Origin: Escherichia phage EscoHU1
Sequence record: NC_133119.1
Strand: one strand, 5' to 3'
DNA length: 64,000 bases
Shown here: piece after piece, positions 111-11,325 of the stretch
How the letters are laid out: every line of letters starts with the position of its first letter
Position numbering within the stretch: the first letter of the stretch is position 1
Program-made: the position numbers and the translations under genes
The notes under the pieces: generated by a model
The model's database searches: none
Seen by the model: the letters and a program-made list of their open reading frames with translations, nothing else
Told to the model about the DNA's origin: nothing

Positions 111-845
111 TTAGGCAACTTTTAATTTATCAATGAATTGTTGCGGCGTGGTACTATATTCCGCGCGTTCTTCCTCGGTCATACCTTCCCAACACATTTT
201 TAAACGTTCGGCTAGGAATTGATAATCGTTATCATCATCTAACGATTCATCAATAAAGGTTTCACCGATCAATGTTACCCCGATTGATAGGATATCGTTA
301 ACGGCTTGAGCGTCCAGCGTTTTAAATCCAGCATTTGCCGCCGCCGATAATACACCTTTATGATCATCAATCATTGTAAAATCAGCGTTCGGGTATAGCT
401 GTTTAAACAGTTCAAAGTAATAAGATTTATATACAGCGTCTTTGCTGTGGTATATTTCGCTAACCTTATCCGCATCAAAGTATTTATGCAAAGTATCGCG
501 GGAAAATACGCGAATATTACTATTTCCGCGCCCTCTTAGACTTTGTTTACGCAAGAAATAATAATCAGATTTACCCATTAAGCGAGCGGTACAAATAAGG
601 TTTAAGGTATTGGGATCATTCATACATTGGCGCATATATTCAACCAATGGTAATAAGGAATCCTGCATAATTAATTCATGTTTGCAGGCTTCGCGGGAAT
701 ACTTAACTAAATCTAAATTCCCGTTATCGTCAAAGCAAGGCGCTACACGATGGAAAGAATTTATAATCGTTCCGTCTAAATCCCAAATCATAACGCGGGA
801 AATATGCGGGAAAGTGTGGGTAATATTCATGTTGACTTGATTCAT
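111..845 (-). CDS. dmp: 5'-deoxyribonucleotidase (HAD-family phosphatase), T5 dmp-like
   Basis: 244 aa ORF; HAD motif IWDLDGTI near N-terminus; size and leftmost position match T5 dmp. Confidence 0.75.
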   Translation of the reverse strand: MNQVNMNITHTFPHISRVMIWDLDGTIINSFHRVAPCFDDNGNLDLVKYSREACKHELIMQDSLLPLVEYMRQCMNDPNTLNLICTARLMGKSDYYFLRKQSLRGRGNSNIRVFSRDTLHKYFDADKVSEIYHSKDAVYKSYYFELFKQLYPNADFTMIDDHKGVLSAAANAGFKTLDAQAVNDILSIGVTLIGETFIDESLDDDNDYQFLAERLKMCWEGMTEEERAEYSTTPQQFIDKLKVA

Positions 846-1690: not shown

Positions 1691-3355
1691 TTATGCAAAG
1701 AATTTACCGTTTTTGAAATCAATCAAAGTACGTTGCCCGTTTGCATAGGTAATTAAATGCGTTTGCGTCCAGCTTGACGCGCCCACGTTGTAACCCATAT
1801 CAAGCGACCCCGCCACGCCAGCGGTATAAACGCCGCCGTAAATGCTAGCCGTATGAGTATGACCAGTGTTAAGGCGTCCAAGTTTCTTAAACTGCTTAGG
1901 ATTGCCCCGACTGCCGTTAATGCCATTGTGACCATGTACGCCGCACTCAATGCCAGCGATTTTAAATGACTGGTCAGTAGTCAGGAAAATAGCGTTAAAT
2001 TCGCAACCTGCAACGTTTCTAAGCGCGTAATCTAGCACGTTAAAGGTATCATCCTTTTCAGCAATAGCGGCGTAAATCGCAGCGTTTAGACGGTGATACA
2101 ATTCCGCGTTTGCGGGATCGTCTTTAATGTTAGCGTTACGATCATCAAGCCAGCGTGAAAGAGCTAAATCATGGTTAGATTCCACAATGATTGTTTGAGA
2201 GAAATCACGCTCCATTGATTCTAATACGCGTCCAGTATCGATAAGATCATCAATAACTTTATCACGTCCTGCGGCGTACTGTTTAGCAAGGAATACACCA
2301 CTAGCGCGGTTGTGATGGTTGCGCGATGTAAAATCATGCACATCATGAATAAACTGATATTTAGGCTTGAGAATATCAAGCAAGCTGTTTTCACTAGCCC
2401 ATGATGCAACGGCGCAATCATCATCTAATTTTTCGGCGTGAATATCGCCATATTGCAAGCCTAGAACATGATCGGACGTTTTATAACATCCGGTAGGAGT
2501 AGCGCAAACATTCAAATCATAGAACATTCCGCTTTCATCCATTGTTTCAAGCTGGCGAACGAAAAATTCTCCGTCGTCGTCGAACTCCACCAGCAAAGCG
2601 CCGAAATTATGCAGAGCCTCAGCTTTTTGACCTGCTTTCTGCTGAATGTAGTTTTTAAGCGTAGCCGTTCCGGTTGAATACATACGGCGCACTACTTCAC
2701 CTTTTAACGCTGGCACACTTTCAGCGGTGATTTTAGCGTGACCTATTGCCAGCCCTTCAATATTTAAAGCCGTGGCGGTTTCTGCGAATCCTGAAAGCGG
2801 ATAATCTGCCGTTGGTAAAACGTTAATTTCAGCCATGAAAGCAAAGCGGCGGTTATTCAGGAAAACATTTTTATCGCAGATATATTTATCAAATGCGGGA
2901 TCGTATTTGATTCCTTCTGCACCTTCCCCGTTCTGGAATCCATTTTTATTATAAATGAATTTACTAATCAGCAATTCAGCACCGATATATTCAGCAAATT
3001 TTTCCAGACTTGCTAAAAAGTTTTTATGCGGGAAAGTATTATTTTGAATCGACGTTAGAATAAAACGGCGACCGGATTTAACTTCCCATTGTTCAACGGT
3101 ACTAGAAACAATTCCCGCCGCTTCGGGGCGATCATCATTTTTAATCGCCTTTTCAGCTTTTGCCGCTTTCGGTTTCGCTGGCTTGTTTGCTTCCAGCCAA
3201 TCACAAATCGCGGTTGAATGTTTCGGCGTATCATAAACAGCTTTTGAAATATCGTCGCAAACTTCCAATTTAGTAGCGCGTAAACGCTTACCGTAGAAAT
3301 TAAAATCAGCGGCCATTTTCAAAATTTGAGCTTGTTTTTCTGCGGAAATATTCAT
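1691..3355 (-). CDS. A1: A1-like pre-early protein (calcineurin-like metallophosphoesterase motifs)
   Basis: 554 aa ORF; GDIHAE and ESNHDL motifs; size and position match T5 A1. Confidence 0.7.
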   Translation of the reverse strand: MNISAEKQAQILKMAADFNFYGKRLRATKLEVCDDISKAVYDTPKHSTAICDWLEANKPAKPKAAKAEKAIKNDDRPEAAGIVSSTVEQWEVKSGRRFILTSIQNNTFPHKNFLASLEKFAEYIGAELLISKFIYNKNGFQNGEGAEGIKYDPAFDKYICDKNVFLNNRRFAFMAEINVLPTADYPLSGFAETATALNIEGLAIGHAKITAESVPALKGEVVRRMYSTGTATLKNYIQQKAGQKAEALHNFGALLVEFDDDGEFFVRQLETMDESGMFYDLNVCATPTGCYKTSDHVLGLQYGDIHAEKLDDDCAVASWASENSLLDILKPKYQFIHDVHDFTSRNHHNRASGVFLAKQYAAGRDKVIDDLIDTGRVLESMERDFSQTIIVESNHDLALSRWLDDRNANIKDDPANAELYHRLNAAIYAAIAEKDDTFNVLDYALRNVAGCEFNAIFLTTDQSFKIAGIECGVHGHNGINGSRGNPKQFKKLGRLNTGHTHTASIYGGVYTAGVAGSLDMGYNVGASSWTQTHLITYANGQRTLIDFKNGKFFA

Positions 3356-3749: not shown

Positions 3750-4166
3750 TTATTCACCTGCGGCCTGTTTCACTTCCTCCGCTACGCCTAACAATTGCGC
3801 CACGGCTTCCAGCGTTTCCAGTTTTGCACTTTCCAGACTTGCCAGATCATCAGCGTCTTTAATAACGCCAGCATCAATGGCATGTTTAGCCATAACGCGC
3901 ACATAGTGAGCTTTACGGACACTAGACCCGCCGCCAACTTTACGCGGTTTATCGCTTTTCTGGTACGCTTTTGCGCTTGTCAGTTTAGAACGTACAGACA
4001 CCGGACTAGCAGCGCCAACGGCGGCGGCAATTTCTTTTAAGCCGTCACTATTCGCAAACTCAATCCCGCTTTTAGCGACCATTTCAGAATACATAGAAAC
4101 AGCCTTTTCGGTGTTTTCTTCGTTCCAAGAAAATTTTGCGGTTTTTTCGGTTTTAACGTTAGACAT
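3750..4166 (-). CDS. A2: A2-like pre-early protein
   Basis: 138 aa basic/acidic ORF directly downstream of A1; size matches T5 A2. Confidence 0.55.
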   Translation of the reverse strand: MSNVKTEKTAKFSWNEENTEKAVSMYSEMVAKSGIEFANSDGLKEIAAAVGAASPVSVRSKLTSAKAYQKSDKPRKVGGGSSVRKAHYVRVMAKHAIDAGVIKDADDLASLESAKLETLEAVAQLLGVAEEVKQAAGE

Positions 4167-4901: not shown

Positions 4902-5287
4902 TATCGTCGATTCCTTATATTATATAAGTTTACCGCCGATAGGCTTTAAGATATTCCCTAATTTTTAAAGAGCATGGCGGTAAACTTCCCCGCCGTTGTA
5001 GTCTGGCCTTTCGTTTCCGTCTTGCCGTCCTACGAGATAAATAATAGGTTATTCCCGAAAATGGCGCAAGCATATTTTTGTAAAGAAACGTAAAGAAAAC
5101 CACTACTCGCAAACGTCCAGCGGCGCACTAAATTTAATGAAACGGGCGCGCGAATAACACCAAAACAACCATTTTAGCAAGTAATTTTTTCATTTATATT
5201 TGCTTTGCCCTACTTGACAAAATCTAAAATCCTCGTGGTGAGGTTTTCTCGGTGTACCCCTTATGATTGCCTATCTTTTCCTTTGAG

Positions 5288-5319
5288 GCGCTTAGAATCG
5301 CTTACAGAGCGTTTTAGAC
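5288..5319. repeat. 32-bp repeat copy 1 (GCGCTTAGAATCGCTTACAGAGCGTTTTAGAC)
   Basis: Near-identical copy at 9065-9096. Confidence 0.6.
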
Positions 5320-5647
5320 CCTGTTAATAACTTATACAAAAAGCAAAAATGAAATTTAATGAATTATCCACTTGATTTTTCAAAAAAGTATTTTCTGCTG
5401 TTATTTTTCATTGACAAATAAGTTTAGGCGTGTATCAGACCCTTAGCAGACTAACAATCGCTAGGATGATAATCACGCTGGTGGATTGTAACAGCCGAAA
5501 CAGTTAGCAGACTATTAATACTCTAAAAACCTATTAGCCAACTAACTATTTCATATTATATAATATACTTATAAATTAAAGAGAAATAATAACTATAAGA
5601 AACTATCGGCTAAGTGAGAACCACTATCATTTAGGTTATTCACAAAG

Positions 5648-5656
5648 TTATCCACA
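5648..5656 (+). promoter_or_regulatory. DnaA box TTATCCACA
   Basis: Perfect 9-mer consensus. Confidence 0.5.
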
Positions 5657-5696
5657 GCACAAAATAACTTGACGCAATAGGCGACGTTTTGGCGAC

Positions 5697-5705
5697 TTAT
5701 CCACA
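5697..5705 (+). promoter_or_regulatory. DnaA box TTATCCACA
   Basis: Perfect 9-mer consensus, 49 bp from the first. Confidence 0.5.
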
Positions 5706-5725
5706 GACTTATGTACAGGTTATCC

Positions 5726-5745
5726 TACTGTATAAATATACAGGG
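5726..5745. promoter_or_regulatory. LexA-box-like palindrome (CTGT-N8-ACAG core)
   Basis: TACTGTATAAATATACAGGG; core CTGTATAAATATACAG fits the SOS box. Confidence 0.45.
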
Positions 5746-5992
5746 TAGAATGGTAGCAGTAACAACCGCAATCAAATTTAAGCGGCCTAAAACGCGTTCT
5801 AAGCGGTTTTTCAGCATTACCCCTTATTATAATAAAGCCTTGTGTACGCTTACAGAGAGCTAGAAATAGAAAACGCGCGGTTAGCACAAAAATAGGCAGT
5901 AGGCAAGGAATAAAAAACCTTTTCTTTTTTCTTGCCCCTAGCGAACAAATATCTATATCATTCACTCACCGATTAACGAGGGAGACAAAGAA

Positions 5993-6994
5993 ATGTCTAC
6001 TGTAAGAATTGCAGTACCAACAAACGCAACTATTATTAAAGGTAGTTTGCGCAACCTGCTAGATGGTAGTAGTGCGGCAAGTATTCAGCACACCGCCGCA
6101 ATGGTTGAAAAAATTCACGAGGATATTTTAGATAATAATGATACTCATTATTCAGTCGATGATTTCACGCTATTACTAGACCAGACAAGGGCGCTAGTAA
6201 TTTTCAACCGTGATTATCACATTTTCCGTAATAGTCGTGGAACTGATATTGATTTTATCATTGTTGGTTATAGTGAGTCTCATAATGGTTACATTGCGCG
6301 ATTATATAACGTGCAAGAAAAAGAGCAGGTAACAGCAACAAAAGTAAATAGTATCAGGCTTGATAGTGTCGGGTCGTTATTAAATAGTATCTGGCGCGAA
6401 TTATCGTCAAGCTATAAAGGCGCGGATAGTGACGCAATCGAAACAACTGGCGTATTGTGTTTTGAACGCGCTAGCGGTAACATGTTGATTCCTGACGATT
6501 ATTTAGGGTACGGGAATGAATCAAACGTTGCAAACGCTGGATTTACATTAAAACCGCTTGACAACGTAGCAAAACAGGCTGTAGAATCTCAAACTTCAAG
6601 CGCAAATGCGCAAACTACTGAAAATAAAGGAAATATTATGTCTAAAGTATCTTCTATCGTTGCTGCTAATAAATCCGCCGTTGTAAACGCTGCTAAATTG
6701 GAAGCGGGTAAAATTGCACTGACTCAAATCACAAAAGTAGCGGCGAAAAAAGCGCCGTTTATGATTAAAGGGTATATTGATACGCCGATTGGTCGCGTAG
6801 TGATCGCTAACCTGCTGAGTGTAGCGGTTGACCAGTACGCCCCGACTAATGCGAAAGCGAAAGCGGTAGCAGGCGCGGCAATGGAAGCGGCAATGTTGGA
6901 AATGGTACAGAGTTTCAATATTGCGGAAATGATCGATGAAATGGTAAAAGGTATTGACATTTCTACTTTTACCAATAACACCGAAAGCGAGTAA
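5993..6994 (+). CDS. hypothetical protein (plus-strand gene in terminal-repeat region)
   Basis: 333 aa ORF; GAGGGAGA RBS 8 nt upstream of ATG. Confidence 0.55.
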   Translation: MSTVRIAVPTNATIIKGSLRNLLDGSSAASIQHTAAMVEKIHEDILDNNDTHYSVDDFTLLLDQTRALVIFNRDYHIFRNSRGTDIDFIIVGYSESHNGYIARLYNVQEKEQVTATKVNSIRLDSVGSLLNSIWRELSSSYKGADSDAIETTGVLCFERASGNMLIPDDYLGYGNESNVANAGFTLKPLDNVAKQAVESQTSSANAQTTENKGNIMSKVSSIVAANKSAVVNAAKLEAGKIALTQITKVAAKKAPFMIKGYIDTPIGRVVIANLLSVAVDQYAPTNAKAKAVAGAAMEAAMLEMVQSFNIAEMIDEMVKGIDISTFTNNTESE

Positions 6995-7002
6995 TAATAA
7001 CT

Positions 7003-7023
7003 AGCGGGGATTATTTCCCCGCT
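7003..7023 (+). terminator. rho-independent terminator
   Basis: AGCGGGGA-TTATT-TCCCCGCT hairpin then TTTACTATTT. Confidence 0.55.
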
Positions 7024-7059
7024 TTACTATTTCCCTGCTAATTAATAGGAGACTAATTA

Positions 7060-7554
7060 ATGTCAGAAGAAAAATATGGCTTTTCGCTAGAAAGTGTGAA
7101 TGAAGCTAAACACGATATGATCGTTTTAGTTGATTGTCATACTGGTTATTGCGGGGAGGGCTGGACGGAAGAACATTTTGTTCCCGCTGGCTGTGATCTG
7201 GATGCTTTCGCAAACGAACACGCATATGATAATGCTTCTCGTTTCGGTAGCGATGGGGAAGAAGATGAAGAAACAGGGGAATGGATTGAAAATGATAATG
7301 TATATGCGAGTCTTTATCATTATCAATTGAGTAAGTCCGGTACTTATGTAAATGGCGGCGATCCTATTAATATCGTTATGAAACTAATTATTAAACACGG
7401 TGGCGCGGAAATAATTGGTAACAAGGCGTTATTATACGCAAACCGATTAAAACAGCTTGTTTATATTCCTGATAATTCCCGTTGGGATGAATATGCCGTT
7501 TTACAGAAAGAATTAAAACGCTGTTTCGGCGTGGAAGCATTAGAAATAGTCTAA
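7060..7554 (+). CDS. hypothetical acidic protein
   Basis: 164 aa ORF. Confidence 0.5.
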   Translation: MSEEKYGFSLESVNEAKHDMIVLVDCHTGYCGEGWTEEHFVPAGCDLDAFANEHAYDNASRFGSDGEEDEETGEWIENDNVYASLYHYQLSKSGTYVNGGDPINIVMKLIIKHGGAEIIGNKALLYANRLKQLVYIPDNSRWDEYAVLQKELKRCFGVEALEIV

Positions 7555-7663
7555 TGTAAAGTTTTGTAAAGGTCGCTTTAATCGGCGGCCTTTTTTGTTA
7601 TAATGCCTTTACACCGAAACGGTGGATTGAAAATTTTCCCAAAATTTTTTGGAGGCGTTAAAA

Positions 7664-7894
7664 ATGGTTGCTTTCTCTTCTTCTGACTCTCTTTTCACTG
7701 GTAAAGGTTGGGTATCTAATCGCTGGATCATTGATCAAATGGTTTCGGAATTTGGGATAGGTAAAACTTATGTTACTATTCAGGCGCTTTATGATAATGA
7801 TCAGATTGACCAGCAAACCGCCGGATTTTTGCTGGACACGTTGAAATCAGAACATTGCACCAAAAAGCAAGCGGCAAAAATCGTTTTAATGTAA
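7664..7894 (+). CDS. hypothetical protein
   Basis: ATG preceded by GGAGG; start trimmed from track ORF 7649. Confidence 0.45.
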   Translation: MVAFSSSDSLFTGKGWVSNRWIIDQMVSEFGIGKTYVTIQALYDNDQIDQQTAGFLLDTLKSEHCTKKQAAKIVLM

Positions 7895-7947
7895 TTAATA
7901 ACGGGGCGTTACTTTCGCCCCTCATTCCCTAACTAGGAGTTAAGCAA

Positions 7948-8160
7948 ATGTTAAAGAATGTTTCCCTTGCCCGTTCTAAAGGTTTTAAGCTGGTGGATGT
8001 TAACACGTTCGAGCGTCCAGATTGTAAAATCGAATATGTAGCACGCAACAAAAACGCTTTCCGTGTTACAGAAAAGAAATTTGACAAGCGCGGAAATTTG
8101 GTAGCCGAAACGGTTAAACACTTTGCCACCTTTTACGCTGCGTTTCGTGGGGTGTTATGA
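7948..8160 (+). CDS. hypothetical protein
   Basis: 70 aa ORF with AGGAG RBS. Confidence 0.45.
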   Translation: MLKNVSLARSKGFKLVDVNTFERPDCKIEYVARNKNAFRVTEKKFDKRGNLVAETVKHFATFYAAFRGVL

Positions 8161-8269
8161 GATCCTTATATATTGCTCTAGCGTTTGCTACCGTTGGCGT
8201 TGTATGTTCCGTCGCCGCATTTGTTTTAAAAATGTACCTGATATTTTCCCAGCTTTAGGAGCTTGACAA

Positions 8270-8617
8270 ATGGTTATTTACGAGGGCAATCGTTTTGTTG
8301 CTAATTGCCGTCCGGCATTATTAGCAAACTATTTAAATCAGCTTTCACCAGTTTATAAAGGTGTGGTTAATATCTATGAAGGCAAAGCACATTATAAAAT
8401 TTCTGCCGTTGTCGCTCGCGAGCTTGCCTTTCAGTTTCTTACTTTTAACTCATGCGATATTCAGGTTATGGGTGAGTCATTAGTAGCAGAAAATGAAAAT
8501 GAATTTATTGACATTTTCCGCAAAGTATGTACCGAGCGCCTGATTATGAAAGGCGCATATATTCAATCAACCGCTGATAGTATTGAAACAGCGTTTCGAA
8601 AAATTGCATATGAATAG
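8270..8617 (+). CDS. hypothetical protein
   Basis: 115 aa ORF with AGGAG RBS. Confidence 0.5.
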   Translation: MVIYEGNRFVANCRPALLANYLNQLSPVYKGVVNIYEGKAHYKISAVVARELAFQFLTFNSCDIQVMGESLVAENENEFIDIFRKVCTERLIMKGAYIQSTADSIETAFRKIAYE

Positions 8618-8740
8618 CTGGTGGCGTAAAACGCAAAGTCACAAATCTAATAATACCGCTGGGAAACATTCCCAGCGTTTACGATTTGGTAATGGCTTCA
8701 CAATGATATTGATAATCATTCTCATTCTAGGAGCAATGGC

Positions 8741-8980
8741 ATGGCTGTAAGAATTTTACGATATGTAGAACGTAAAGAAACCGATATTATGCAGCATCAT
8801 TTAACTGATGCGCAATATGCGCAATTTTTAGAAATGCAGAAAAGCGGAGCTAGTACGGCGGCGCTAGGGGCGTGGATCAATTCAGTTTCAATATGTACGC
8901 ATTTTGATTCATACGGATATACGCCAGCCGAAACCGTCCAGATCTTTGACGACTACGAGAAGGAATACATAGCAGACTAA
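8741..8980 (+). CDS. hypothetical protein
   Basis: 79 aa ORF with AGGAG RBS. Confidence 0.45.
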   Translation: MAVRILRYVERKETDIMQHHLTDAQYAQFLEMQKSGASTAALGAWINSVSICTHFDSYGYTPAETVQIFDDYEKEYIAD

Positions 8981-8986
8981 TAATAA

Positions 8987-9008
8987 CGGGGCGCAACTAC
9001 CGGCCCCG
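8987..9008 (+). terminator. rho-independent terminator
   Basis: CGGGGC-loop-GCCCCG hairpin then CCTTTTCT. Confidence 0.55.
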
Positions 9009-9064
9009 CCTTTTCTGGCCTTCCTCAAATTTCCCCTTGTAAAATACCTCCTCCAAAAATAAAC

Positions 9065-9096
9065 GCGTTAGAATGCGTTACAGAGCGTTTTAGAGC
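9065..9096. repeat. 32-bp repeat copy 2
   Basis: Matches 5288-5319. Confidence 0.6.
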
Positions 9097-9124
9097 TATA
9101 TTAGAGCTATTCACTACACAGGAA

Positions 9125-9144
9125 TACTGTATAAATATACAGTA
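9125..9144. promoter_or_regulatory. LexA-box-like palindrome TACTGTATAAATATACAGTA
   Basis: 20-mer one base from E. coli SOS-box consensus TACTGTATATATATACAGTA. Confidence 0.5.
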
Positions 9145-9152
9145 GAATAACC

Positions 9153-9173
9153 TGTTGATAAGTCTGTTGATAA
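9153..9173 (-). promoter_or_regulatory. tandem DnaA-box-like 9-mers (TTATCAACA x2)
   Basis: TGTTGATAAGTCTGTTGATAA on plus strand; one mismatch to consensus each. Confidence 0.4.
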
Positions 9174-9264
9174 CGCCTCAAAATCGCTAGGATTTTGTCA
9201 GGTCAAATCGTGCTGTTAATAAACCTGTGAATAAATTAAATAACAGTGTTTCTCACTTCACTTT

Positions 9265-9415
9265 GTAAATGCGAGTCATTCTCGTTATCATTCGCGTTTC
9301 CCTTCCTAAATGCAAATCATTCTCATTCGTATTCCGGTAGTCAAATGATAACCATTCTCATTCGCATTCAACTTCTCAAATGCGAATCAATCTCATTATC
9401 ATTCGCATTTTGGCA
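9265..9415. repeat. about 4 direct repeats (~38 bp unit, AAATGCGAATCATTCTCATT...CATTCGC)
   Basis: Units start near 9269, 9310, 9343, 9381; each has internal TGCGAAT/ATTCGCA inverted repeat. Confidence 0.6.
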
Positions 9416-9447
9416 GGCAGGGCATTTTCATTTTGCCCTGCGCTTTT

Positions 9448-10049
9448 GTGCAAATCCGACATTTGCCCCCACGGATTACGTGCCAGCGTGCATGTGCGAA
9501 TCCGACAATTTTTGGTAGTGTGCAAATCCGATGGCAAATATTTTTTATATGTGCGAATCCGACAATGAATTTTCCTAAAAACTCCAGCAATCACGAGTGC
9601 GGCTCGATTCCTGTGGAATTAGCTAGAATATGCGCAGAACCGACAAGCGTTAAGGTGTGCGAATCCGACAAGATTTTTGTGACTTCGATGAGAGGGTGTG
9701 TAATTGTGTGAGTTTGTGGGAGAGTTGATGCAGCGAGAGAAAATTAGAGGAGAAACTGGAGGGTGCAGCTGTGGTGGCGTGAAACGCCTGGTTTGCTGCG
9801 TTTTTGGGGATAATGTGGGATGTTTTGGGATAATTGGGCATGGAGCGAGATAAAGTGAAATTTTATTAGCAAAATGGGGCAAAATCGCTTGACAAGTGAA
9901 AATTCCTGTGGCTCTAAAAACTCAGGCAAACATGGGCCTTCGGCCCGAAATAATGCTGCTATTTTCAGTGTTCATAAAAACTTTGGAGACTCCTATCAAT
10001 GTGCAAATCCGACCATAAATTTCTAGAAACACAGTGTGCAAATCCGACA
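9448..10049. repeat. iteron array: 14-mer GTGCRAATCCGACA in at least 8 copies (presumed first-step-transfer / injection-stop region)
   Basis: Copies at 9448, 9494, 9519, 9551, 9633 (variant), 9657, 10001, 10036; irregular spacing. Confidence 0.65.
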
Positions 10050-10445
10050 GTAATTTCCAGACTGACAAGAGTCAATTATTTTTCCTAGAAATAACCGCCC
10101 TCCCTATAACCGCCCTGTATTAAACCGCCTATTGCTGGAGTTTCTAGGAACATGAAAACCGCCTGAGTTGGCGAGAGAAACAGATTTAAAGTTTAGTGTA
10201 AACTCTAGAGTTAGTGCTCAACTATTCCTAGAAACTTAGGAGTCTAGAGGAAAGTATTGTGCCATCCTAGCAGATGAGCGGCAACCGGTGTATCATCTTG
10301 AACACAAATATTGCCTTTAAATATTATAAGGTAAGTAAAAGTTAATATACCCCCATTTCATGAGAGTTAGCCCCTCTAGGCGCGTGCGATTTAGTACTAT
10401 CATTTTGGTTCTCGTGAGAAAGAACATATTCTAGAACCACTCCTG
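10021..10445. repeat. dispersed TTCTAGAAA-like palindromic motifs
   Basis: Copies near 10021, 10085, 10143, 10235, 10431. Confidence 0.35.
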
Positions 10446-10596
10446 ACGTCGGAACCTATCAATGTTTTTCTTTGAGAAATGCTATTATAATCTACGGCCT
10501 AGAGGTAAAAACAAGTTGATGTTTTTAATCTATGAGATTATTATAACACATTATTCTCACGAATGTCAAGCATATTTCGTTACTTTTAAATTTTTG

Positions 10597-11325
10597 TCAT
10601 GAGTTTGGAGTTGGGTAAATTTTTATGCAACCTTGACTTAATAGATATTCTTCTGCCTCCACAGCCTTAACGTTGAATATCTCTTTTGCTCCATCGAATT
10701 TATAATGGTTAGCAAATTTGTTCTCGAAGAATTTATGTGCTTGATGCTCTAGTTTATAAGCAAGTTCTTTCGATCCTTTCTTATATTGATAGATACCAAA
10801 TACTTCCATATCTTCGAAACCAGGCACACGCAGTTTATCATACTCTAGATTCTTAAACCTTTGATGTGGCTCTCTAGAAACTCCAATCTTTGTCTTTAAT
10901 TTCTTCCTAGACTGATCTTTATTAGAGAAAATATAGAGATATGTAGGAAACTGAACATCCTCTTCTATTTCAGGTTTCTCTATAGGTGTGTTGAGGTTGC
11001 TTTCTCTAGCACATTGTAAACAGCCGTGCCCCTCTAAGTGGGATCTAGCAGTTTGCATAAAATAACCTTTATGCTTGTAACACCATATCTCTACTAGTTG
11101 GGTGGCTGTTTTATACTTAACTCTTTCGTACCCATATTCTTCTTTCTGGACTTTCAAAGCTTTCTTAATAAAGATAAGGTTTAATGCTTCTTGCTGGAAG
11201 TCTGGGTGAAGTTGTCTAATCTTTGTTATATTGGTAGAACCATTTGACTTCAAAAAGTTTTTAAGAGGAAACTTCCTGGCTTCCTCTCGTAGCTTTTCAT
11301 TTATCTCACTGCGTAAATCATCCAT
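10597..11325 (-). CDS. GIY-YIG-like (T5orf172-type) domain protein with N-terminal Cys/His motif
   Basis: 242 aa ORF; PTYLYIFSNKD...KIGVS resembles GIY-YIG/T5orf172 core; HLEGHGCLQCA. Confidence 0.45.
   Translation of the reverse strand: MDDLRSEINEKLREEARKFPLKNFLKSNGSTNITKIRQLHPDFQQEALNLIFIKKALKVQKEEYGYERVKYKTATQLVEIWCYKHKGYFMQTARSHLEGHGCLQCARESNLNTPIEKPEIEEDVQFPTYLYIFSNKDQSRKKLKTKIGVSREPHQRFKNLEYDKLRVPGFEDMEVFGIYQYKKGSKELAYKLEHQAHKFFENKFANHYKFDGAKEIFNVKAVEAEEYLLSQGCIKIYPTPNS

What the first reader, a model, noticed from the sequence alone, without database searches (positions are those of the whole stretch)
5288..5745. Module of 32-bp repeat, two perfect DnaA boxes and a LexA-box-like palindrome, duplicated near 9065-9173
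Two loci about 3.4 kb apart in the pre-early region each contain the same 32-bp sequence, a CTGT-N8-ACAG palindrome (the 9125 copy is one base from the E. coli SOS-box 20-mer) and DnaA-box 9-mers. Binding sites for two host DNA-binding proteins on the first DNA to enter the cell suggests host-protein involvement in first-step transfer arrest, replication initiation, or SOS-coupled expression.
Basis: partly seen in the sequence, partly recalled or inferred. Interest (0 to 1): 0.55.

Follow-up and report, generated by a model that had tools for sequence, protein, structure and literature searches.

The report
T5-type injection-stop module with LexA operator
This is the known inverted-repeat and DnaA-box module that brackets part of the first DNA a T5-like phage injects, and its inner palindrome is a near-perfect binding site for the host SOS repressor LexA, conserved across the phage family and apparently not noted before.

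Summary
The window is the left terminal repeat (first-step-transfer DNA) of a T5-like phage.

The two loci are the known T5 repeats IRC-spacer-IRD and IRD'-spacer-IRC'. They form a 132-nt inverted repeat (about 225 nt when extended) around the rightward pre-early operon. Each arm carries two pairs of DnaA boxes with 3-bp gaps. These repeats, their DnaA boxes and a DnaA-based injection-stop model are already published (Davison 2020 preprint, citing 1987 and 2005 work).

The LexA reading seems to be new.
- The inner 16-mer CTGTATAAATATACAG gives 20-mers scoring 26.6 and 22.0 bits on a matrix built from 18 documented E. coli SOS boxes. The next best site in 64 kb scores 13.3.
- The exact 20-mer occurs in beta- and gammaproteobacterial genomes beside recA, lexA/umuD-type, dnaE2-type, dinI and yebG genes.
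- The site sits 9-11 nt from the DnaA boxes in Demerecviridae as distant as Vibrio phages (A1 33% identical).
- TG and CAG never vary, and the central dinucleotide flips.

Best reading: pre-existing host LexA and DnaA load a boundary complex at the arrest point. This function is untested. No validated promoter overlaps either box.

The parts
5288..5319 (+). Third copy of the TTAGA-type repeat (GCGCTTAGAATCGCTTACAGAGCGTTTTAGAC). It lies outside the inverted-repeat unit and is in direct orientation to the 9064 copy. It is probably IRB of the T5 nomenclature.
   Evidence: (D7, I3). The 27-nt core is 89% identical to 9068-9094.
5535..5564 (+). Promoter-like site TAGCCA-18-TATAAT. If active it would transcribe rightward through the left module. 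It is not validated.
   Evidence: 10 of 12 matches. The same hexamers and spacing are present in T5 at about 6050-6085.
5612..5743 (+). Left arm of the 132-nt inverted repeat, the homologue of T5 IRC-spacer-IRD.
   Evidence: I1; 80% identical to T5 6098-6237..
5636..5656 (+). Distal DnaA-box pair, TTATTCACA-aag-TTATCCACA, with a 3-bp gap.
5697..5717 (+). Proximal DnaA-box pair, TTATCCACA-gac-TTATGTACA. A third degenerate 9-mer, TTATCCTAC (5720-5728), follows and overlaps the flank of the LexA box.
   Evidence: The third 9-mer is read directly from the sequence.
5726..5745 (.). Left LexA operator, TACTGTATAAATATACAGGG, forming the inner end of the repeat arm.
   Evidence: 22.0 bits and 22.5 bits. 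Conserved in relatives.
5784..5808 (-). Inverted, shorter copy of the TTAGA-type repeat. It is the counterpart, within the left unit, of 9064-9096.
   Evidence: (I3, I15).
5932..5961 (+). Homologue of the T5 pre-early promoter P11 (TTGCCC-18-TATCAT), which drives the rightward operon.
   Evidence: T5 annotates a promoter at 6411-6489. Primer extension validated P11 in T5 (PMC7472727).
5993..8980 (+). Rightward pre-early gene cassette enclosed by the two modules (a DUF7566 gene and small ORFs). Its content varies between relatives.
8985..9013 (+). GC-rich hairpin followed by a T run, read as the terminator of the rightward operon.
   Evidence: Sequence. It maps onto the T5 terminator annotated at 9275-9296. 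The scan tool did not flag it, probably because the loop I read in the hairpin is 10 nt, above the scan's 8-nt loop limit (my reading, not checked with the tool).
9064..9096 (+). TTAGA-type repeat of the iss-proximal module. TTAGA motifs sit at 9068, 9090 and 9101, spaced 22 and 11 nt.
   Evidence: (D7).
9125..9144 (.). The iss-proximal LexA operator, TACTGTATAAATATACAGTA, one base from the consensus.
   Evidence: 26.6 bits, above all 18 documented E. coli boxes. HI 0.76. The exact 20-mer flanks SOS genes in bacteria.
9127..9258 (-). Right arm of the 132-nt inverted repeat, the homologue of T5 IRD'-spacer-IRC'. It lies inside the region homologous to T5's annotated injection stop signal.
   Evidence: (I1).
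9153..9173 (-). Proximal pair of variant DnaA boxes, TTATCAACA twice with a 3-bp gap, 10 nt from the palindrome.
9214..9234 (-). Distal DnaA pair, TTATTCACA and TTATTAACA, with a 3-bp gap.
9250..10056 (+). Iteron-like direct repeats of the injection-stop region: 35-nt-period units at 9311-9410 and at least six copies of TGTGCRAATCCGACA.
   Evidence: D1-D5. Homologous to T5 9338-10608. Described.

Best explanation
The two loci are the two arms of the T5-family boundary module of first-step-transfer DNA, known as IRC-spacer-IRD and IRD'-spacer-IRC'. Each arm reads, from the inside out: a block of TTAGA/CTAGA repeats, a near-consensus LexA operator, and then, 9-11 bp further on, two pairs of DnaA boxes in one orientation.

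Proposed mechanism:
- Both proteins already exist in the uninfected cell, so a LexA dimer and DnaA would load onto each arm as soon as it enters, without any phage protein synthesis.
- This builds a stable nucleoprotein complex at both borders of the variable rightward pre-early cassette.
- The right-hand complex sits a few hundred bp inside the point where DNA transfer halts. I think it most likely acts as part of the injection-stop or anchoring signal.
- It may also act as an orientation-independent boundary that keeps transcription from crossing between the cassette and the neighbouring DNA.

Shown here:
- The anatomy and its statistical significance.
- Homology to the T5 elements.
- That the palindrome is an SOS-operator sequence actually used in bacteria.
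- Its conservation, with a fixed distance to the DnaA boxes, across Demerecviridae.

Inferred:
- That LexA and DnaA bind in vivo.
- That binding contributes to arrest or insulation.
For: Identity of the region:
- It is T5-like first-step DNA, and the right arm lies within the homologue of T5's annotated injection stop signal.
- The inverted-repeat structure appears (I1).

DnaA boxes:
- The cluster and the 12-nt pairing never appeared in 300 simulations.
- They match the published eight-box arrangement.

LexA box:
- 26.6 and 22.0 bits against 13.3 for the next best site in the window, and above 18 and 13 of the 18 documented E. coli boxes.
- 0 of 200 simulations reached 22.5 bits on the recalled-box matrix.
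- The exact 20-mer hits at least 120 genome stretches. The 80 listed are almost all beta- or gammaproteobacteria, including GC-rich genera.
- Of 120 flanking ORFs from those 80 loci, the Pfam matches were Peptidase_S24 in 12, PHP in 10, DNA_pol3_alpha in 8, RecA in 5, DinI in 2, LexA_DNA_bind in 2 and YebG in 1.

Conservation:
- One to three high-scoring boxes lie next to DnaA boxes in T5, Salmonella and E. coli relatives, Klebsiella Sugarlandvirus, Erwinia KEY, Proteus Stubb and Vibrio phi3, KIT04 and Chester. In Vibrio 70E35.5a the box has no DnaA box beside it.
- Phages with an A1 homologue outside Demerecviridae lack this box-plus-DnaA arrangement; one of them, L059, has a lone 19.6-bit box with no DnaA boxes.
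- Among 72 unique modules, TG and CAG are invariant. The central dinucleotide flips between TT and AA relative to the DnaA boxes, which fits symmetric recognition by a dimer.
- The phage DNA-binding protein A2 is only 33% identical between this phage and Vibrio phi3, yet the 16-mer is identical.

Literature:
- Arrest needs no phage protein synthesis, and a second arrest band near IRC was reported.
Against: - No experiment shows LexA or DnaA on this DNA. Recent papers state that functional studies of these sites are lacking.
- It is unclear how proteins bound to DNA already inside the cell would stop further entry.
- The left LexA box has decayed (CTG to TTG) in some relatives, and the Vibrio phi3 and KIT04 loci examined have no full left box. 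Only the iss-proximal copy looks indispensable.
- The interior of the palindrome is more conserved than natural SOS boxes require. Shared ancestry or an additional constraint could explain this.
- From memory, T5-type phages grow on recA-deficient laboratory strains, so release from arrest cannot depend on LexA cleavage.
Confidence: 0.4

Rival explanations
1. Transcriptional control. LexA and DnaA act as an operator, roadblock or attenuator for pre-early transcription. They would either repress a weak promoter built from a DnaA box (-35) and the palindrome (-10), or block read-through from the upstream TAGCCA-18-TATAAT site into the cassette. Cassette expression would then rise in SOS-induced hosts.
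For: - A promoter-like site, TTATCA-16-TATATT, overlaps the right box on the minus strand.
- A 10-of-12 promoter-like site at 5535-5564 lies upstream of the left module and is conserved in T5.
- LexA normally works as a repressor.
- The symmetric flanking of a cassette that is inverted in Sugarlandvirus would suit an orientation-independent boundary.
Against: - The validated promoter P11 lies about 190 bp downstream of the left box.
- The scan found no promoter over the left box.
- The central dinucleotide flips. In most modules the candidate -10 would read TATAAA, losing its final T.
- The right-hand candidate promoter would fire antisense into a terminator.
Confidence: 0.25
2. The palindrome, and perhaps the TTAGA repeats, are bound by a phage-encoded dimer such as A2 or the A1-A2 complex. 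This could serve release of the arrest or cleavage, as in Davison's restriction-site idea. On this view the match to the SOS box is incidental.
For: - A2 is described as a DNA-binding dimer needed for second-step transfer, and the literature lists palindromes in this region as candidate A1/A2 targets.
- The interior of the palindrome is more conserved than LexA needs.
- The conserved TTAGA/CTAGA arrays have no obvious host binder.
Against: - A2 has diverged to 33-40% identity while the site is unchanged.
- The invariant positions are exactly the LexA contact triplets, and the permitted variants (CTGG, CCAG) are those seen in natural SOS boxes.
- The identical 20-mer serves as an SOS operator in bacteria, so host LexA would occupy it in any case.
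- Pfam gives no fold for A2.
Confidence: 0.15
3. An origin-like or recombination element. The DnaA boxes, iteron-like repeats and AT-rich flank would act as a DnaA-dependent origin, or the inverted repeats would mainly serve recombination such as cassette inversion or terminal-repeat circularisation.
For: - DnaA-box arrays lie next to 35-nt-period repeats and TGTGCRAATCCGACA repeats.
- An AT-rich stretch at 5540-5610 lies beside the left boxes.
- The DUF7566 gene is inverted between the modules in Klebsiella phage GZ8.
Against: - The cited literature maps T5 origins near the genome centre, and replication genes are absent from first-step DNA.
- No recombinase or initiator gene is recognisable in the region.
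- Inversion by ordinary homologous recombination would not need conserved protein-binding motifs.
Confidence: 0.07

Closest known systems
T5 IRC-spacer-IRD and IRD'-spacer-IRC' inverted repeats with paired DnaA boxes, part of the injection stop signal region (Heusterspreute 1987 and Wang 2005 as cited in Davison, bioRxiv 10.1101/866236)
   Same: - About 131-132-nt inverted repeats bracket the rightward pre-early operon.
- There are four pairs of DnaA or variant boxes with 3-bp gaps.
- The position matches, and the DNA is 76-80% identical to T5.
- T5 carries the identical 16-mer at both sites.
   Different: - The literature I could read treats the palindromes in this region only as structural features or possible restriction sites. 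It does not mention LexA or SOS.
- This phage lacks the HNH endonuclease insertion that splits the left repeat regions in T5.
Chromosomal SOS boxes (LexA operators) of beta- and gammaproteobacteria, such as tisB/istR, umuDC and dinD
   Same: - CTGT-N8-ACAG dyad with an AT-rich spacer.
- Scores at or above the strongest E. coli operators.
- The identical 20-mer is found beside recA, lexA/umuD-type, dnaE2-type, dinI and yebG genes.
   Different: - No validated promoter overlaps either box.
- The boxes sit in untranslated repeat DNA of a virulent phage, fused at a fixed distance to DnaA-box arrays, and occur as an inverted pair 3.4 kb apart.
LexA-controlled switches of temperate phages and other mobile elements (CTX-phi, the coliphage 186 tum type of antirepressor, GIL01, colicin operons); recalled from memory
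   Same: A mobile element uses the host LexA repressor through consensus SOS boxes.
   Different: Those boxes gate a promoter that decides induction or toxin release. Here the phage is strictly lytic, and the box shows no convincing operator-promoter geometry.
DnaA-box clusters of oriC, datA and DARS, and of plasmid origins with iterons; recalled from memory
   Same: Several closely spaced 9-mers in one orientation, strong boxes next to degenerate ones, and neighbouring iteron-like repeats and AT-rich DNA.
   Different: There is no evidence of initiation here. The cited literature maps T5 origins elsewhere. The 12-nt box period differs from the 11-nt arrays of oriC.

Membership tests
T5 IRC/IRD inverted-repeat module of first-step-transfer DNA | An inverted repeat of about 131 nt, with one arm between the divergent pre-early operons and the other at the start of the untranslated region that precedes the terminal-repeat end | tested here: met
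   (I1): 5612-5743 versus 9127-9258. Gene order dmp-A1-A2 and the operon layout match T5.
T5 IRC/IRD inverted-repeat module of first-step-transfer DNA | Eight DnaA or variant boxes in four pairs, each pair separated by 3 bp | tested here: met
   Boxes at 5636/5648, 5697/5709, 9153/9165 and 9214/9226, as described.
T5 IRC/IRD inverted-repeat module of first-step-transfer DNA | Nucleotide homology to the T5 elements | tested here: met
   5613-5753 matches T5 6098-6237 at 80%, and 9054-10302 matches T5 9338-10608 at 81%. Alignment.
LexA operator (SOS box, CTGT-N8-ACAG type) | Dyad CTGT-N8-ACAG with an AT-rich spacer, scoring within the range of validated operators | tested here: met
   26.6 and 22.0 bits against a range of 13.0-25.3 for 18 documented boxes.
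LexA operator (SOS box, CTGT-N8-ACAG type) | The same sequence is used next to SOS-regulon genes in bacteria that have this LexA motif | tested here: met
   Hits are confined almost entirely to beta- and gammaproteobacteria. Flanking genes are enriched for Peptidase_S24, RecA, PHP/DNA_pol3_alpha, DinI, LexA_DNA_bind and YebG.
LexA operator (SOS box, CTGT-N8-ACAG type) | Overlaps the promoter it represses | tested here: inconclusive
   Only a 9-of-12 promoter-like match lies over the right box, and none over the left. The validated P11 lies about 190 bp away. No transcript start map was available.
LexA operator (SOS box, CTGT-N8-ACAG type) | LexA binding in vitro or in vivo, with derepression on SOS induction | not testable with these tools
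   Needs gel shift, footprinting, ChIP or a reporter assay.
Functional injection stop signal | A cis-acting sequence whose removal or mutation abolishes arrest of DNA transfer at about 8% of the genome | not testable with these tools
   Only the position is supported: the right arm lies within the homologue of T5's annotated injection stop signal. The papers read say functional studies are lacking.
DnaA-dependent replication origin | A DnaA-box array beside an unwinding element, with replication starting there | not tested
   Boxes and AT-rich flanks are present. I did not search for an unwinding element, and initiation cannot be tested here. The cited literature places T5 origins near the genome centre.

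The most novel reading that the evidence does not exclude
Host LexA, acting with DnaA, is a so-far unrecognised component of the T5-family injection-stop and boundary complex. A strictly virulent phage family would then have kept a better-than-natural SOS operator on the first DNA it injects, so that a pre-existing host repressor clamps that DNA. The 60-year-old question of what stops T5 DNA transfer would become directly testable in lexA(Def), lexA(Ind-) and DnaA-depleted hosts. Entry into an SOS-induced, LexA-depleted cell would change how the phage delivers or expresses its genome.
Probability: 0.2. Interest if true: 0.8.

Novelty: new member of a known kind. Interest (0 to 1): 0.5.

Why it matters
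How T5 halts DNA transfer after about 8% of the genome, without any phage protein synthesis, is still unexplained. The only molecular proposal, membrane-bound DnaA on the DnaA boxes, remains untested.

Recognising that the innermost palindrome of the same module is a top-affinity LexA operator, conserved from E. coli phages to Vibrio phages, adds a second concrete host candidate with well-characterised genetics: lexA(Def), lexA(Ind-) and recA hosts, and purified protein. It also gives point mutations to design (CTG and CAG).

It would be a rare case of a strictly lytic phage family keeping an SOS box. If LexA turns out to be irrelevant, the result is still a corrected anatomy of a known element.

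Tried and rejected
- **Chance.** Rejected by shuffles and simulations for both motif types.
- **A direct duplication of one module.** Rejected. The LexA and DnaA part is an inverted repeat, and the 5288 copy of the short repeat lies outside it.
- **A structured RNA.** Rfam at a permissive threshold found nothing relevant in 5000-10700. I did not pursue RNA folding further.
- **A domain clue for A2, A1 or the cassette proteins.** Pfam gave only domains of unknown function or nothing.
- **A conserved promoter over the palindrome.** The -35 candidates are poor. Spacing to the conserved TAGAAT/TAGGAT gives no -35. That hexamer fits better as part of a third, degenerate DnaA-like 9-mer (TTATCCTAC). 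The central dinucleotide flips.
- **A timer in which A1-driven host DNA breakdown activates RecA and cleaves LexA to release the arrest.** Set aside as an obligatory step. From memory, T5-type phages grow on recA-deficient strains, and A2 mutants degrade host DNA yet fail in second-step transfer.
- **Prior reports.** Full-text searches for T5, T5-like or first-step transfer together with LexA or SOS box found nothing relevant. Davison 2015 is not held in the library, and I did not read Heusterspreute 1987. An earlier mention cannot be excluded.
- **A matrix built from memory.** Replaced by one built from 18 boxes printed in PMC3009722, with the same outcome.

Full report
**What the window is**

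Bases 5000-10500 match more than 500 T5-like phage genomes. The best is Salmonella phage HMD-P2 at 94% identity. The gene order is dmp (111-845, minus strand), A1 (1691-3355, minus), A2 (3750-4166, minus), then a rightward operon. This is the order in the left terminal repeat of T5, the first-step-transfer (FST) DNA that enters the cell first. The finding covers the divergent intergenic region at 5113-5992 and the start of the long untranslated region after 8980.

**Check of the observation**

CTGTATAAATATACAG occurs exactly twice in the window, at 5728 and 9127. These are the only CTGT-N8-ACAG matches in 64 kb.

Perfect TTATCCACA boxes lie at 5648 and 5697. With TTATTCACA at 5636 and TTATGTACA at 5709 they form two pairs with 3-bp gaps. 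The second locus has four boxes on the minus strand, at 9153, 9165, 9214 and 9226. In 300 simulated sequences, none had three or more boxes in 110 nt, and none had a pair spaced 12 nt apart. The window has 4 boxes in such a stretch and 3 such pairs.

The short repeat is real but looser than described. It matches at 24 of 32 positions, with a 27-nt core at 89%.

The main correction concerns orientation. The LexA and DnaA part is an inverted repeat: 5612-5743 versus 9127-9258, 132 nt (I1). Aligned with T5, it extends to about 225 nt. In that alignment the partner of the 9064-9096 repeat is the inverted copy at 5784-5808. The 5288 copy is a third copy outside the unit.

**What is already known**

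Davison's preprint (10.1101/866236) describes the 131-bp inverted repeats IRC-spacer-IRD and IRD'-spacer-IRC' of T5. It attributes the DnaA boxes to a 1987 paper. It reports that nearly all of 25 T5-like phages carry eight boxes in four pairs separated by 3 bp. It proposes that membrane-bound DnaA on these boxes stops DNA transfer. It also cites an old observation of a second arrest band near IRC.

Papers from 2023 and 2026 repeat that the region has repeats, palindromes and DnaA boxes, and the 2023 paper adds that functional studies of these sites are lacking. The window aligns to the T5 elements at 76-81% identity. The right arm lies inside the homologue of T5's annotated injection stop signal. 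So most of the finding rediscovers a named element, in a new T5-like genome.

**The LexA box**

The preprint never mentions LexA, SOS or promoters. Full-text searches linking T5, T5-like phages or first-step transfer with LexA found nothing relevant. Two older sources could not be read. I tested the assignment in four ways.

- *Score.* I built a matrix from 18 E. coli SOS boxes printed in PMC3009722 Table 4. On it the 20-mer at 9125 scores 26.6 bits, above all 18 boxes. The 20-mer at 5726 scores 22.0, above 13 of them. The next best site in the window scores 13.3. A larger matrix from recalled boxes gave the same picture (26.0 and 22.5 bits), and no simulated 64-kb sequence exceeded 19.7 bits.
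- *Use in bacteria.* The exact 20-mer TACTGTATAAATATACAGTA hit at least 120 stretches among the reference genomes. The 80 listed are almost all beta- or gammaproteobacteria, the clades that use this LexA motif, and they include GC-rich Burkholderia and Cupriavidus. Of 120 flanking ORFs, the Pfam matches were Peptidase_S24 (LexA/UmuD type) in 12, PHP in 10, DNA_pol3_alpha (error-prone polymerase type) in 8, RecA in 5, DinI in 2, LexA_DNA_bind in 2 and YebG in 1. This sequence is a working SOS operator.
- *Conservation in the phage family.* T5 has the same 16-mer at both sites. High-scoring boxes lie next to DnaA boxes in about 35 Salmonella and E. coli relatives, Klebsiella Sugarlandvirus, Erwinia KEY, Proteus Stubb and Vibrio phages phi3, KIT04 and Chester. 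Vibrio 70E35.5a has the box without adjacent DnaA boxes. In the Vibrio phages A1 is 33% and A2 33% identical to the window's proteins. Phages that have an A1 homologue but not the T5 layout lack this arrangement; one, L059, has a lone 19.6-bit box with no DnaA boxes.
- *Pattern of variation.* Among 72 unique modules TG and CAG never change. The changes seen (CTGG, CCAG, interior substitutions) are those found in natural boxes. The information profile correlates with that of E. coli boxes (rho 0.79). The central dinucleotide flips between TT and AA relative to the DnaA boxes. This fits symmetric recognition by a dimer and argues against a directional -10 element.

The gap between the palindrome and the first DnaA 9-mer stays at 9-11 nt across genera.

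**Limits of the LexA reading**

- The interior of the palindrome is more conserved than LexA needs.
- The left copy has decayed to TTG in a subclade and is only a half-site in Vibrio KIT04. Only the iss-proximal copy looks universal.
- Neither box overlaps a validated promoter. The homologue of P11, validated by primer extension in T5, lies at 5932-5961, about 190 bp downstream of the left box.
- The only promoter-like match over a box is a 9-of-12 site at 9161-9134 on the minus strand.

**Other conserved blocks**

The core AGAGCGTTTTAGAG recurs even inside the Vibrio spacer, before a second, weaker palindrome. Nothing identifies its binder. A2 gives no Pfam match.

**Mechanism**

Arrest of transfer needs no phage protein synthesis, so only pre-existing factors can read the signal. 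LexA and DnaA are constitutive, sequence-specific and conserved across the host range. This explains why these motifs persist while the phage proteins diverge.

I therefore favour a host-loaded nucleoprotein complex on each arm. The right-hand one sits a few hundred bp inside the arrest point and contributes to the stop or to anchoring. It may also act as an orientation-independent boundary for the enclosed cassette. I give this 0.4.

Rivals:
- A transcriptional operator or roadblock (0.25).
- Binding by phage A2 or A1 instead of LexA (0.15).
- An origin-like or recombination role (0.07).

A model in which RecA-driven LexA cleavage releases the arrest is unlikely as an obligatory step (see tried and rejected).

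**Verdict**

Most of the structure is already known. The LexA operator is a well-supported, testable and apparently new annotation of it.

Noticed in passing
window 10540-10569 (minus strand), downstream to about 10155: A perfect sigma-70 consensus promoter (TTGACA-18-TATAAT with an upstream TG, 12 of 12) reads leftward into the ORF-less repeat region, towards the iss-proximal module. A weak terminator-like hairpin lies at 10174-10159. This could be a non-coding RNA of about 375 nt, or a transcript that runs into the DnaA/LexA complex. Rfam has no match.
   Followed up: partly
window 10020-10500: CTAG is clustered: 14 occurrences in the 10-11 kb bin against about 4.6 per kb elsewhere. Most occur as TCTAGA or TCTAGG motifs, which resemble the TTAGA/CTAGA motifs next to the LexA boxes.
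   Followed up: partly
L039 (Klebsiella phage GZ8) 5825-6790 versus window 5993-6994: The DUF7566 gene (35% identical) lies on the same strand as A1 in GZ8 but on the opposite strand in T5 and in the window. The cassette between the two inverted modules has therefore been inverted in Sugarlandvirus, as expected from recombination between the repeats.
   Followed up: partly
L043 (Vibrio KIT04), L044 (Chester) and L042 (phi3): the spacer between DnaA boxes: The Vibrio phages carry a second, weaker palindrome, ATGTATAAATATACAG, inside the spacer. It is preceded by AGAGCGTTTTAGAG, the core of the window's short repeat. The repeat-plus-palindrome unit is thus itself reiterated.
   Followed up: no
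L015:7578, L017:3765, L018:7117, L021:7113, L025:7557: In a subclade of close relatives the left LexA box has changed from CTG to TTG and its score falls to about 17 bits. The iss-proximal box stays at 26 bits.
   Followed up: no
L002:20369, L003:16729, L006:18520 and about ten other loci: A weaker LexA-like 20-mer, CACTGGACAAGCCTACAGTA (15.5 bits), recurs at a conserved place several kb beyond dmp in many T5-like genomes. It has no DnaA boxes nearby and is probably inside a gene.
   Followed up: no
window 9197-9202 (minus strand) and 5670-5675 (plus strand); T5 L001 6154-6159: A TTGACA/TTGACG/CTGACA hexamer is conserved in the spacer between the DnaA pairs, with no matching -10 at 16-18 nt. 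A further conserved block, AGTGTTTCTCAC, ends each repeat arm (5613-5625 and 9246-9258) and is also present in Proteus and Klebsiella phages.
   Followed up: no
window 5290-5303 versus 9066-9079: Around TTAGAAT the flanking triplets are swapped between copies: GCGcTTAGAAtCGC versus CGCgTTAGAAtGCG. The swap keeps the dyad symmetry and looks like a compensatory change. It hints at a hairpin or a symmetric protein site.
   Followed up: no
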